NCBI GenBank assembly: GCA_964016885.1
Contig: OZ024752.1
Location: 11,718,001-11,782,000 of the forward strand
Direction of reading: 5' to 3'
Length of the DNA: 64,000 nt
DNA from: Eledone cirrhosa
Lineage: Eukaryota
The position numbers were made by a program, and so were the translations under genes. The notes beneath the pieces are model-generated. The model saw only the letters and a program-made list of their open reading frames with translations. It had not been told where the DNA came from and searched no databases. Every line of letters begins with the position of its first letter. The stretch's first letter is position 1. This document shows, one piece after another, positions 6,154-57,387 of this stretch.

Positions 6154-6292
6154 ATATATATATATATATATATTAGTAAAAAGGAAAAGAAAATGGTGAC
6201 AAATTTTTCCCAGTGAAAAATAGTTTCATTAGGAATAAGTATAAATAAGTATATATATATATATATATATATATATAGTTTTAATATAGAAG

Positions 6293-6343
6293 AGATTCTA
6301 CAGGACTAGAACTGTTTCATTCATTAGAAATCATCAGGAATCT
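6293..6343 (-). ncRNA. Type I hammerhead ribozyme motif (family A, left arm)
   Basis: Reverse complement of 6893-6943. Confidence 0.8.
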
Positions 6344-6892
6344 GGGTATCAAAAAATAAATATGGTATTTATAGGTCTCTACAAGTGGTAGGAGAGGGTG
6401 GGGAGTGGGATGGGTGCAGGTCATTGGTTGATAGAAAAGGGAATTCATTAAAAGCTAATTCTACAAGGCTATAGTTTATTTTTATTTTTATTTATATTTA
6501 TTTATGTTTTTAGAGTAACAAAGGCAGACAGAATTCTATAAACAGGTTCCGGATGGCATACCATTCCTTGTCAATAAGTTTCTCTTAAGCTAACAGATGT
6601 CCTGAATCTTTTCCTACTACCCACTGACTTTATAGACATCTGTTAGCTTAAGAGAAACTTATTGACAAGGAATGGTATGCCATCCGGAACCTGTTTATAG
6701 AATTCTGTCTGCCTTTGTTACTCTAAAAACATAAATAAATATAAATAAAAATAAAAATAAACTATAGCCTTGTAGAATTAGCTTTTAATGAATTCCCTTT
6801 TCTATCAACCAATGACCTGCACACATCCCACTCCCCACCCTCTCCTACCACTTGTAGAGACCTATAAATACCATATTTATTTTTTGATACCC

Positions 6893-6943
6893 AGATTCCT
6901 GATGATTTCTAATGAATGAAACAGTTCTAGTCCTGTAGAATCT
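6893..6943 (+). ncRNA. Type I hammerhead ribozyme motif (family A)
   Basis: AGATTC CTGATGA t TTC taat GAA t GAA ACAG ttctagtc CTGT A GAATCT: 6-bp stem I, short stem II, 4-bp stem III, GUA site. Confidence 0.8.
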
Positions 6944-7093
6944 CTTCTATATTAAAACTGTTATACTCTGCTATGTATTGAGTACCTTACTTACTGTGGT
7001 TACCTCCGATTCAACCCGGAATAACGTATATATATATATATCTATATATATATATATATATATATATATATATGTGTGTGTGTGTGTGTGTGT

Positions 7094-7311
7094 AAAAGGT
7101 AAACAGAAGTAACAACACAATCGGTAGAGTATATGGAAGGTAAATATTAGGTTAACGCTTGATATAGCAGGAAGAGGGTCTTAACGTTTCGGACGCTAGT
7201 CCTTTATCAGAAGAAAGAATGAAAAATAAAATAGATTAAGGGGACGGGCGGGATGGAATTGGAAAAAATGTCTTTAGATAAAAATAATAGGTCCATTCAT
7301 GTTGACATCTC
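7094..7311 (-). mobile_element. Family G element with a mutated hammerhead (7179-7214, core CTGATAA)
   Basis: Reverse complement tctt CTGATAA aGGAC tagc GTCC GAAACGTT aaga; homologous to 22060, 58241, 59595, 60135. Confidence 0.75.
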
Positions 7312-7353
7312 TTATATATATATATATATATATATATATACATATACATATAT

Positions 7354-7490
7354 GGAACTAGCTGTTTATACGGCAAGAGCTCAGCCGTCTGGGTCCCGAC
7401 TCTTTCATATATCCATAACCTACTAATCCTACTATCGAGTACTTTGGTGAGTAATGTTCTCACCAGTTTCAAACTGAATCCATCCTGATT
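7354..7490 (+). mobile_element. Diverged family B fragment
   Basis: acggcaagagctcagccgtctgggtc...atcgagtactttggtg. Confidence 0.6.
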
Positions 7491-53609: not shown

Positions 53610-54655
53610 TGATGGTTGCCCCCTCGTTATCGAGTATGGCCATTGTACGATATACCATTATTAATAATTATTAATTAATTCTATCGTGCAATGCCTGTGC
53701 GTGAAGATATATTTTAAAGTGAGGAAAGACTGTGCACTGAGCCAATCCCACTCTCTGAGCGACAGTAACTATAACCCGAAAAGAAGAAAAGATCAACATC
53801 ATCGGTAACTACTGAGCCACAGGTTTTATATCGGAGTTATCCCAGTTTCCTGAGTTGCCTTCTCCTAGAAGAATGCCCTGACAAAGGATAGGGGTCCTTC
53901 ACTCCCAGTGGTTTAACCGCGCGATCGAGTGTCCAGCCTGACTATTTCTATGCCCCCGCGCATATACATACGCATGCACCCATGTATATATACATATACA
54001 TACATATGTACATGTGTATATACATATTTACACACTTTTGGATGGCTGTTGACTCTTATAAGTTCTTCCGCCCTTTGTCAGGTTTTGTTTTTTGTCCTGC
54101 AGGGTGTCCAACATCACCTCCTCACCAAGTAAATTTGGTGGGGTTGCCGGTTATGTCGCCGACGACCCGACCATGCGACAGGTTGTACTGGGTTACATGT
54201 TACCAGTAGCACTCAAGAGTGACCCGACATACATATATACATACATACATGGTGGCTGCCAACTCGTTTTCGAGTACGGCCACTATTTATATGCATGCAG
54301 GAGAACCCCTACCAATGCGTTGAACGAGTGTGACTTTTTAGTCCAGCCAGCGACTTGAAAACTCTGGTACAAACACTACACTTGTGACAATTATTGACAC
54401 ATAGTGCTGGGCCCATGGTACCATGTGACGACACGTGCAGAGAGATCTCCAGATATAAAGCAATGCCTGTGCCGTGAAGCTTTTATAGTGAGCAAAGGCA
54501 CTGCACAAAGCCAGTCCCACTCTCTTAACCAAGATGATATTTACCAAAAAGAAGAACAAGTCAACATCATTGGATACCATCAGAGTTGCAGGTGTTATAT
54601 CAGAGTTTTCCTTCTCCTAGAATTCTGCATTGACAAAGGCTAAGGGGTCATCTCA
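53610..54655 (-). mobile_element. Family K cluster: diverged 3' part (53610-53915), 5' part (54036-54230), younger 3' part (54251-54653)
   Basis: Homology to 25130-25740. Confidence 0.8.
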
Positions 54656-55069
54656 TACATACATACATACATACATACATACATACATACATTCATACAT
54701 ACATACATACATGCATGCATGCATGCATGCATACAAACATACATACATACATACATACATACATACATACATACATACATACATACATACATACATACAT
54801 ACATACAAACACCACTGAACCGTAATAGGTAGCAATAACGAGATCACTGCTATTCCGTTGATTATTGCATTATTGAAACCTTTATTCCGTTGATTATTGC
54901 ATTAATACTATCGTTCTTATTAACAATCAATCGTCCAAATAATTAACTATGTTCATTAACCTCATTACAACCCTGTTGCTTTCATCACTTTCACCTTTTC
55001 CCGATATTTAATAAACCACCACTCATTTCTTTTTCTCTCATTCCTCCAATCTCACTTACGCGCATTATA

Positions 55070-55242
55070 TCGTTACAGTGTCAGACTCGATGCTTTGCAT
55101 CATAGAGTTACGGCCCTTTACGTTTTGAGTTTAAATCCCGCCGAATTTAACTTTGCCGTTCATCCTTACGGAGTCAATAAAATAAAGTACCAGTAATGCA
55201 CTGAAGTAATTGCTTGCCTTGTCCCAAAGGGGGAAACAATTA
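55070..55242 (+). mobile_element. tRNA-derived SINE
   Basis: Family consensus. Confidence 0.8.
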
Positions 55243-56359
55243 TTATTAAGTAACTGTTCTGAAGAGTTTCGCGGATGGCAGCTGATCGCACAACTGGAGA
55301 TATATTTCAAGATGCATGATTACATTGAGCCAGTTAAACTGGGTGAAGTAATGGAAAAATGATGTATAATGTACTCTTGTGTTGGGTACTGTTTCTGCAA
55401 GCTTGCATACACAAACCTACGGATATATACATACATATATATATATATACATATATGCATATATATATATATATATATATATATATATATATATATATAT
55501 AATATAATATATATATATATATATATATATATAATATAATATATATATATATATATATATATATATATATATATATGTATATATACATACGTATATATAC
55601 ATACATACATACATACATACATACATACATACATACATACATACATACATACATACATACAAACATATACAAGCACGTTTCAAAATGTTCTCTTTGATAT
55701 GATTTCCCTTAATTATATTGTGTAATATTCCCAGCTCCATATCTGCCATAAATGCTGTGCTTTATAAAGTTGTATGCTAATAATCTGCAATGTCTGTTTC
55801 ACTGAGCCGCTCGCTCAGTCGCCCGCTCAATCGCCCGCTCAATCACTCGCTCAGTCGCCCGCTCAAACACTCGCTCAGTCGCTCGCTCGCCTTTTTGCAC
55901 GCTTGTTCGCTCTTTTCAATTTATTGCCCACTAAAATCCTACTAATTTTAGTTGCGCTGCCATTTCCTACATTGTTACCCAATTTACCAGCATACATGCA
56001 TATATACATACATATATACGTACATTCATAGATACATACATACATTCATGCATAGAAACACAGGTATATACTCACACAGATACAGGCTTATATATTCATA
56101 CGTACATATATATATGTAAATGCGTGTGTATATATATGTGTGTGTGTAAAGAGAGAAAGAGAAATAGTCGCTGGTTCTGAAACCGGGAAGACTACATTGT
56201 ATATATATATATATAAATATATATAATGTAATAAACAACATAAGATAATTATTTCATTTACCAGTGGTAAATGCAAACAAAATTTGCTTTCAGTCATCAG
56301 AATGAAAAAATCCTGGTGTATTTATTGACAGTGGATTTTAAAAACCTATATATATATAA

Positions 56360-56665
56360 CACAAATTTAAATTTCGAATACCAGCACAATGCGTATGAAG
56401 AATGTTAAATTGCCAAGATATGAAAAGAATCTTACATTAGTAAATTTAACGATCCCAAATATTTTCGAATTTAAAAACCCATTATTAAGGGAGTCGCCCT
56501 ATGAGGGACTCCAAAATCAATCGGATAGTCTTGCTTGTTTGGAGAGCAGATTTAAATGAAAATATTTGGGATCGTTAAATTTGCTAAGGTAAGATTCTTT
56601 TGTTATCTTGGCAATTTAGCATTCTTCATAACACATTGTGTTGGTCTTCAAATATAAATTTGTGA
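56360..56665. mobile_element. Foldback element family J (arms ~56360-56466 / 56558-56665), no hammerhead seen
   Basis: Diverged inverted arms between TA tracts. Confidence 0.7.
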
Positions 56666-56915
56666 TTCCTATTAAACAATGCTTCAAGCAAGCTACAAAA
56701 CTATATATATTCGTATGTATGTATATATAAATATATATATATATATATATATATATATATATATATATATATATATATTGATAAAAATAACAGATTAAGC
56801 AAAGAATCGCTGCTTTGGATTTTAGTCTTCAAATTTATTATTATTACTATATATATGTATGTATGTATATATATATATGTATGTATGTATATATATATGC
56901 ATATATATATATATA

Positions 56916-57387
56916 TTGCTATACTTTGGGAGGGTCGTGTTGCCAATAAGAAACACACGCACCAGTTGCTTTCACTTCAATTTATTATAAATTTATAAAT
57001 TTTATAAATATAAATTTTATAAATTTCCGGTTGGTTGATTTGTTCCACAAACGGATGGTTGTTCATATATTGTCAAAGTTCTTTCGTCACACATTCTGTG
57101 AGCTCTTCAGTGACTGGGGATTCTTTTCTTCGGTCACTGAAGAGGTCACAGAATGTGTGACGAAAGAACTTTGACAATATATGAACAACCATCCGGTTGT
57201 GAAACCAACCAACCGGAAATTTATAAAATTTATATTTATAAAATTTATAAAAATTTATAATGAATTGAAGTGAAGCAACTGGTGCGTGTGTTTCTTATTG
57301 GCAACATAACCCTCCCAAAGTATAACAATATCGGTTTCAACACACGTATTCAGATAAAGAATCTTGCTAAACAAATTCAGAAACGAA
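56916..57387. mobile_element. Family E foldback (arms ~56916-57114 / 57133-57330) plus right tail
   Basis: Inverted arms; homolog of 10856-12217. Confidence 0.9.
57133..57175 (+). ncRNA. Minimal hammerhead motif (family E); mirror copy at 57072-57114 on -
   Basis: Identical to 11067-11109. Confidence 0.8.

What the first reader, a model, noticed from the sequence alone, without database searches (positions are those of the whole stretch)
6277..57387. Shared geometry of the foldbacks: head-to-head arms, one hammerhead per strand, one-sided tail
Seen in families A (6277, 30858, 43794), B (5868, 37662), C (35167), D (10490, 42375), E (56916) and H (40985): the left arm carries the motif on - and the right arm on +, so both 3' ends face outward. 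Usually only one arm carries an extra tail, typically ~45-90 nt (longer in H). Turn points vary between copies of a family, so each foldback arose independently. Inference: a common integration mechanism (cDNA snap-back or two-ended priming at a cut TA tract). Transcription from either strand would give a long dsRNA hairpin that sequesters the ribozyme and could be an ADAR or Dicer substrate.
Basis: partly seen in the sequence, partly recalled or inferred. Interest (0 to 1): 0.7.

Follow-up and report, generated by a model that had tools for sequence, protein, structure and literature searches.

The report
Head-to-head Penelope retrotransposon foldback insertions
These DNA hairpins are cut-short, back-to-back ends of Penelope-like jumping genes sitting in TA repeats, a layout already described for this class, and across the genome they nearly always pair one short-ended with one long-ended arm, which likely means each arm is copied separately from RNA onto its own side of the DNA break.

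Summary
The foldbacks are real and head-to-head: 142 of 147 adjacent opposite-strand pairs, and 10 of 10 motif-bearing foldbacks in 600 kb of unselected DNA. Families A, D, E and H are 3' ends (pseudo-LTRs) of Penelope-like elements. D, H and probably A are Hydra-type; E has a Neptune/Nematis-type linker. B and C have no ORF partner found. Inverted pseudo-LTRs, head-to-head orientation, a one-sided tail, TA targets and hammerheads are all published for this class, so the geometry is known. 'One hammerhead per strand' is overstated: a full core lies on both arms in 5 of 10 listed foldbacks (6 with a variant), and B lacks the 5' core genome-wide. Mechanism: each family has two sharp 3' ends, 108 of 113 pairs carry one of each, the tail often sits on the 5'-shorter arm (36 vs 17), and 11 tail arms share nothing with their partner. 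This favours two-ended priming over snap-back (about 65%), but later deletion can mimic part of it. ADAR/Dicer use is untested. The scan has already reported the same elements and reading on other DNA of this genome.

The parts
5868..6152 (.). Family B foldback; tail on both arms; only the 3' half of a hammerhead-like motif (no CUGANGA)
6277..6601 (-). Family A left arm, tailless end at TA tract, minimal type I hammerhead core at 6315-6337
6599..6625 (+). 27-nt piece at the A junction identical to family B sequence (window about 8137-8163); likely a template switch
   Evidence: sequence comparison; junction not covered in laid runs
6635..7026 (+). Family A right arm, hammerhead core 6899-6921, tail 6960-7026
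10402..10836 (.). Family D foldback; cores on both arms (10550-10587 -, 10738-10775 +); tail about 10402-10489 on left arm
30858..31065 (.). Family A short foldback; tail on left arm; core on left arm only (right core broken)
35085..35510 (.). Family C foldback; cores on both arms; tail about 35085-35166 on left arm; no ORF partner found
37662..37837 (.). Family B foldback; partial tail on left arm; no complete hammerhead
38130..38530 (.).
40820..41317 (.). Family H foldback; variant hammerhead (CUGAUGU core, long stem II) on both arms, 13-nt insertion in right arm; tail about 40820-40984 on left arm
42290..42702 (.). Family D (diverged subfamily) foldback; cores on both arms; tail on left arm
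43794..43932 (.). Family A mini-foldback turning inside stem II; left arm cut short; no complete core; tail on right arm
56916..57392 (.). Family E foldback; cores on both arms; tail about 57332-57392 on right arm

Best explanation
The foldbacks are pairs of 5'-truncated 3' ends of Penelope-like retroelements joined head to head in TA repeats, and each arm is likely a separate cDNA primed from its own side of the cut target. Shown: the arms are ends of several families; D, E and H follow reverse-transcriptase/GIY-YIG ORFs elsewhere in the genome and A brackets one; each family has two sharp 3' ends, and a pair nearly always carries one of each. Inferred: the element protein nicks both strands of a TA tract, one 3' end primes reverse transcription at the outer start site (giving the tail) and the other at the inner site (no tail), on the same RNA or on RNA of the same source. 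The two cDNAs grow inward, stop at variable points (often near a common 5' boundary) and are joined by short homology or filler. B and C are inferred to be non-autonomous passengers. The hairpin is a by-product; any dsRNA, ADAR or small-RNA effect would depend on host read-through transcription, which is untested.
For: ORF links: E directly follows a GIY-YIG ORF stop in L099 (the same ORF end lies beside E in L083, L091, L106; Pfam GIY-YIG E=0.003, below the curated cut-off) and an RT ORF in L269. H follows RT then EN in L272; D follows RT then EN in L258. The same RT family lies between inverted A arms in L032 and L033. Two 3' ends per family at similar frequency. 142 of 147 pairs are head-to-head; the other 5 are separated by TA tracts. 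108 of 113 pairs with two defined ends are tailless plus tailed, 5 both tailed, 0 both tailless. Tail on the 5'-shorter arm 36, longer arm 17, equal 55; in pairs not selected by the query 15, 2 and 20. 11 of 120 tail arms share no sequence with the partner arm. At one exact B junction the unpaired centre base reads A toward the tail in 90 hits and T in 68; copying from a tail-bearing first strand predicts one class only. One B arm is joined blunt and head-to-head to an A arm (L018). In vitro, a Poseidon element cleaves and extends both strands, prefers AT-rich DNA, starts at two RNA sites that bound the tail, and is a predicted dimer (PMC11167929).
Against: All mechanistic evidence is from old genomic copies. 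Asymmetric deletion across a hairpin centre after insertion could shorten the tail arm (64 of 142 junctions show overlap), and recombination between arms could flip the centre. Tailless arms under 24 nt are invisible to my search, which inflates 'tail on shorter arm'. Arms within a foldback are more alike than arms between foldbacks (median within above median between in all six families) and match in subfamily, and only 1 heterologous pair was found: this fits snap-back equally well. Most loci were top hits to my queries, and the E query contained the tail. The A link to its ORF is interrupted by microsatellites and nested insertions. No ORF partner was found for C (0 of 12 upstream 10-kb stretches) or B. 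Pfam scores for these ORFs are weak or absent. The 6277 junction was not covered in the runs laid.
Confidence: 0.66

Rival explanations
1. Penelope-like insertions whose second arm is made by self-priming (cDNA snap-back, or self-priming on an antisense template as proposed for rotifer Penelopes), ended by a cut at the inner site, with later central deletions and inversions producing the asymmetries.
For: Arms of one foldback are of one subfamily and closer than random pairs; 55 of 108 pairs have nearly equal 5' extents and 64 of 142 junctions overlap; self-priming was the published reading of junction palindromes (PMC3846280); the tail was ascribed to endonuclease resolution (PMC8557442).
Against: A copied arm cannot hold sequence its template lacks: tail on the shorter arm in 36 of 53 unequal pairs, 11 tail arms with no overlap; centre base 90:68 at an undeleted B junction, and 15:7 among near-identical young copies.
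Confidence: 0.24
2. The hairpins are mobile units in their own right (MITE-like or retrozyme-like palindromes) copied whole, especially family B.
For: One exact B junction recurs in 22 of the 30 best B hits and gives 158 pattern hits genome-wide; B has over 72,000 motif hits and no ORF partner found.
Against: In unselected B pairs the spacing takes 12 different values from 25 to 45 nt and the recurrent junction spacing is 1 of 19; the same junction occurs in several B subfamilies and with the tail on either side; other families vary widely in turn point.
Confidence: 0.05
3. The foldbacks are kept because they make dsRNA (ADAR or Dicer substrates, or a way to mute the ribozyme).
For: Long helices predicted on both strands; octopus has exceptionally many potential long dsRNA loci and strong hyper-editing, and palindromic frog repeats are heavily edited (PMC5625713, passages).
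Against: The geometry is explained by insertion alone; arms decay (80-99% complementary); several foldbacks have no complete ribozyme.
Confidence: 0.03
4. Amplification or assembly chimeras.
For: The 6277 arms are nearly identical and its own junction was absent from the contigs and reads laid.
Against: Arms end at family-specific sites, differ by tail and substitutions, and are strictly oriented, none of which chimeras give; many family A foldback joints appear in short-read contigs and in raw reads of another sample.
Confidence: 0.02

Closest known systems
Hydra clade of C-terminal EN+ Penelope-like elements (Craig et al. 2021, PMC8557442; Hydra-1_Obim listed in supplement File S1 with (TA)n preference)
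   Same: RT followed by GIY-YIG EN with a CxCX5C linker (D, H; degenerate in A), DKT motif (D), hammerheads in the terminal repeat, (TA)n target, inverted 5'-truncated copy, tail on one end.
   Different: Tails here are 60-165 nt rather than the 30-40 nt quoted for PLEs generally; most insertions are reduced to the two ends; sequence identity to the published families was not tested.
Neptune/Nematis-type EN+ Penelope-like elements (PMC8557442)
   Same: Family E: C-terminal GIY-YIG with CX4CxxC linker and two Cys plus His residues of the CCHH type; minimal hammerhead; microsatellite target.
   Different: No tree was built, so the clade is assigned by motif only.
Penelope elements of Adineta vaga (Arkhipova et al. 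2013, PMC3846280)
   Same: Inverted pLTR at the 5' side, head-to-head as the most frequent arrangement, palindromes at the junction, optional tail on one inverted pLTR.
   Different: That paper inferred self-priming on an antisense template from a few copies; the counts here favour two separate primings.
Poseidon of Anolis in vitro (Frangieh et al. 2024, PMC11167929)
   Same: Two RT start sites bounding the tail, AT-rich target, both strands cut and extended, hammerhead cleavage dispensable for insertion (fits coreless family B).
   Different: The parts read do not address how inverted pairs form or why the two ends pair one of each.
LINE-1 twin priming
   Same: Two target ends prime cDNA at different RNA sites and give a 5'-to-5' junction with 3' ends outward.
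   Different: In L1 it is a minority event at variable internal sites with little overlap; here the second site is fixed, the arms usually overlap, and 46 of 82 arms reaching the 3' region in the unselected sample sit in adjacent pairs.
Animal non-LTR retrozymes (bioRxiv 10.64898/2026.07.22.740005, abstract, introduction and part of methods read)
   Same: Short non-coding hammerhead repeats proposed as non-autonomous PLE derivatives; may describe C.
   Different: Retrozymes are defined as tandem repeats with complete hammerheads; these are inverted pairs and B lacks the 5' core.

Membership tests
EN+ Penelope-like elements | RT plus C-terminal GIY-YIG ORF upstream of the terminal repeat | tested here: met
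   D (L258), E (L099, L269), H (L272); Pfam hits weak or absent, motifs read by eye
EN+ Penelope-like elements | ORF link for family A | tested here: inconclusive
   same RT family between inverted A arms in L032 and L033, but separated from the end by microsatellites and nested insertions
EN+ Penelope-like elements | ORF link for families B and C | tested here: not met
   C: 0 of 12 upstream 10-kb stretches; B: none recognised in 30 loci. They work like PLE ends but are not shown to be autonomous members
EN+ Penelope-like elements | Inverted 5'-truncated copy, head-to-head | tested here: met
   142 of 147 pairs; 10 of 10 in unselected DNA
EN+ Penelope-like elements | Optional tail on one end, two discrete 3' ends | tested here: met
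   (108 of 113)
EN+ Penelope-like elements | Minimal type I hammerhead in the terminal repeat | tested here: met
   core motifs in A, C, D, E and a variant in H; not met for B; monomers do not fold stably in silico, as expected of minimal motifs (PMC4209133)
EN+ Penelope-like elements | Hammerhead self-cleavage activity | not testable with these tools
   needs in vitro assay
EN+ Penelope-like elements | Tandem pLTR-ORF-pLTR copy with the tail running into the ORF start | not tested
   no intact tandem copy was sought or met
Hydra clade | CxCX5C linker before GIY-YIG | tested here: met
   D, H; degenerate in the A-linked RT copy of L033
Hydra clade | (TA)n insertion | tested here: met
   102 of 108 pairs with at least one TA flank, all families pooled
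Hydra clade | Placement in the RT phylogeny | not tested
   no reference proteins on hand, no tree built
Neptune/Nematis type | CX2-5CxxC linker and CCHH-type residues in EN (family E) | tested here: met
   translations of L083, L099, L106, read by eye
Non-LTR retrozymes | Tandem repeats with a complete hammerhead in each unit | tested here: not met
   the window copies are inverted pairs; B lacks the 5' core

The most novel reading that the evidence does not exclude
Penelope-like elements integrate by obligate asymmetric twin priming: one protein complex primes one cDNA at the outer RNA start site and one at the inner site from the two ends of a cut TA tract, so the tail and the inverted repeat are two marks of a single reaction, and a 140-nt passenger (family B, over 72,000 motif hits) that has lost the ribozyme core uses it efficiently.
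Probability: 0.6. Interest if true: 0.6.

Novelty: new member of a known kind. Interest (0 to 1): 0.36.

Why it matters
The geometry itself is published. What the genome adds is numbers: how Penelope-like elements make inverted repeats is called undefined in PMC8557442, and the earlier proposal was self-priming. The one-of-each rule for the two ends, tail-only arms and the unbiased centre base turn this into a sharp prediction for the existing in vitro system. The reaction also deposits hairpins densely (49 foldbacks per 600 kb sampled, not all traced to these families), a plausible but untested source of dsRNA in an animal group known for heavy A-to-I editing.

Tried and rejected
Rfam scan: dominated by microRNA models hitting microsatellites and palindromes, all below gathering score; of the 150 rows shown (238 in all) only one hammerhead (HH9, 34525-34596, below gathering), not in a listed foldback. 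Monomer folding of the motifs gave no stable hammerhead fold. My first idea that family B has a fixed turn point (22 of 30 best hits) was rejected as query bias. A search for a B parent with a conserved 5' core found only 52 heterogeneous joins. No ORF partner for C in 12 upstream stretches or for B downstream of the ORF fragment beside it in L058/L257. Arm-identity test did not separate snap-back from twin priming. Expression: no RNA holder listed, so editing and small RNAs were not examined. Laying reads on the 6277 junction gave no coverage of 6594-6611 in four runs; contigs drop rare variants, the raw run is reduced-representation and the samples may be other individuals, so this is not proof of absence. 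Literature searches: 'twin priming' with 'Penelope' gave 3 papers, none about PLE integration by title and abstract start; 'Octopus, Penelope, hammerhead' gave 5 papers, 4 listed; 'Penelope, head-to-head, inverted, self-priming' gave only PMC3846280 as relevant among 15 listed of 31. Subscription papers (Arkhipova 2006; Evgen'ev and Arkhipova 2005) were not searchable and may already discuss two-ended priming.
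Full report
Setting. The window is G000:C12:11718001-11782000 of a 3.0-Gb genome with 1,796 contigs, AT-rich and full of microsatellites. It looks like an octopod by its repeats (recalled; earlier scan notes say the same); this was not tested.

Observation. All ten foldbacks exist where stated. Strict hammerhead cores sit on - in left arms and on + in right arms. 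Arm by arm: both arms have a strict core at 6277, 10490, 35167, 42375 and 56916; H has a variant core (CUGAUGU, about 75 nt between the core halves) on both arms; 30858 has one; 43794, 5868 and 37662 have none complete. Family B carries only the 3' half of the motif: 52 of 72,410 exact 15-mer hits have CUGANGA 2-32 nt upstream, in mixed contexts. Nine of ten have a one-sided extension; B at 5868 has two.

More than chance. I took 60 unselected 10-kb stretches at 12 sites on 10 contigs. A family-blind scan found 49 foldbacks; 10 had a strict core and all 10 were head-to-head, only 3 with the motif on both arms. Mapping six natural reference copies onto loci L001-L276 and the window gave 147 de-duplicated adjacent opposite-strand pairs (153 before the last de-duplication, which also collapsed some B copies with pure TA flanks): 142 head-to-head, and 5 that are separate insertions across a TA tract. 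Among pairs not selected by a query it was 56 of 58. In the first 100 listed genome hits of the B motif, 19 close pairs were head-to-head and none tail-to-tail.

Artefact check. Laying short-read contigs and raw reads on 5850-7030 showed many family A foldback joints with different turn points, some also in raw reads of a different sample under the same species label. The junction of the 6277 foldback itself had no coverage at 6594-6611 in four runs, so that single locus is unconfirmed. No long reads were available.

What the families are. E follows directly on the stop of a GIY-YIG ORF with a CX4CxxC linker (L099; Pfam GIY-YIG E=0.003, under the cut-off) and an RT ORF in L269. H follows RT and an endonuclease with a CxCX5C linker in L272 (also L108, L118, L129). 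D ends an RT-EN ORF with the same linker in L258, and a short tailed D arm is inverted at its 5' side. A brackets one RT family as inverted arms in L032 and L033, though microsatellites and nested insertions intervene. Pfam found little or nothing for these ORFs; the motifs were read by eye against section 11 of PMC8557442, which defines the Hydra clade by CxCX5C, DKT and (TA)n targets and lists Hydra-1_Obim in its supplement. No ORF partner was found for C (0 of 12 upstream stretches) or B.

Known geometry. PMC3846280 (passages and Discussion read) describes an inverted pLTR, a tail optionally on one inverted pLTR, palindromes at the junction and head-to-head as the most frequent arrangement, and proposes self-priming. 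PMC8557442 (passages, section 11, supplement rows) describes the same for several clades and calls the cycle undefined. PMC4209133 (passages) describes minimal hammerheads in pLTRs with low activity. PMC11167929 (parts 1-2 of 4) shows cutting and extension of both strands at AT-rich DNA, two RT start sites bounding the tail, a predicted dimer, and insertion without ribozyme cleavage.

Mechanism. Each family has two sharp 3' ends of similar frequency. Of 142 head-to-head pairs, 29 had a truncated or mid-tail end and were set aside; of the remaining 113, 108 carry one end of each kind, 5 two tailed ends and none two tailless ends. Both outer ends abut TA in 79 of 108, at least one in 102. Snap-back from a tail-bearing first cDNA requires the second arm to be a subset of the first. 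Instead the tail lies on the 5'-shorter arm in 36 pairs, on the longer in 17, and 55 are about equal; in pairs not selected by the query 15, 2 and 20. In 11 of 120 pairs the tailed arm is tail only and shares nothing with its partner. At one exact B junction the single unpaired centre base reads A toward the tail in 90 hits and T in 68 (one hit is not that junction and two loci appear in both lists), as expected if two cDNA ends anneal over a mismatch. One B arm is joined blunt to an A arm. I therefore infer two primings, one from each end of the cut, at the outer and inner start sites, with the cDNAs meeting at their 3' ends; junctions overlap in 64, are blunt in 7 and carry extra bases in 71 of 142. 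Against this: later central deletion or inversion could create part of the asymmetry, very short tailless arms escape detection, most loci were query-selected, and arms of one foldback are of one subfamily and closer than random pairs, which snap-back also predicts.

Turn points. They vary, so most foldbacks arose separately, but they cluster: B spacing runs 25-45 nt with 12 distinct values in 19 pairs, and A, D, E and H show recurrent 5' boundaries (partly shaped by my queries). That these are RNA 5' ends is inference, also proposed in an earlier scan note.

RNA consequences. Folding predicts long helices on both strands (17-189 bp uninterrupted), so a read-through transcript would pair the ribozyme region with the other arm. 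Whether the window is transcribed is unknown. PMC5625713 (passages) makes editing of palindromic repeats plausible in octopus, but nothing here tests it.

Verdict. A real and strongly non-random pattern, explained as 5'-truncated Penelope-like insertions of Hydra and Neptune/Nematis type plus likely passengers; the layout is known and the scan has met it on other DNA of this genome (1,002 notes fit the look-up words, 8 shown, all on PLE-type foldbacks or repeats). The value lies in the counts that favour two-ended priming.

Noticed in passing
window 6599-6625 and about 8137-8163: The loop of the family A foldback holds 27 nt identical to family B sequence just after its putative cleavage site, suggesting a template switch between two families' RNAs during one insertion.
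   Followed up: partly
tails of families A, B, C, D, H: All five tails contain GAGTRC (about 47-52 nt before the outer end in A, B and H); the E tail does not. May be a shared recognition motif linking B and C to Hydra-type proteins; motif chosen after the fact.
   Followed up: partly
family B genome-wide: A 140-nt element with 72,410 exact motif hits that keeps only the 3' half of a hammerhead-like motif; a few copies gain a 5' core by fusion with other families' ribozymes.
   Followed up: partly
window 19072-19307 (+) and 19673-20550 (-): 3' end of a non-LTR element with a restriction-like endonuclease-type ORF fragment (zf-RVT hit; family name recalled) and an inverted copy of its 3' end, facing tail-to-tail across a microsatellite.
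   Followed up: no
   Followed up: no
window 421-445 (-), 34525-34596 (+), 22151-22174 (-), 59704-59727 (+), 11071-11099 (+): Further hammerhead cores outside the listed foldbacks; 34525-34596 matches Rfam HH9 below the gathering score; 11071 belongs to a second family E pair at 10853-11210.
   Followed up: no
window 56360-56664: Older, diverged foldback (77% self-match) with a core-like motif nearby at 56252-56300 (-).
   Followed up: no
window, e.g. 13934-14128, 41775-41970, 48150-48347: About 20 copies of a 190-nt SINE-like repeat on both strands, some forming close inverted pairs.
   Followed up: no
window 49607-50943 and 63602-64000: Tandem arrays of about 55-nt and 52-nt units; a shorter copy of the first at 3477-3732.
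   Followed up: no
L058 minus strand, about 469-1280: A family B arm joined without a TA tract to an unrelated ORF fragment of unknown family (no Pfam hit).
   Followed up: partly
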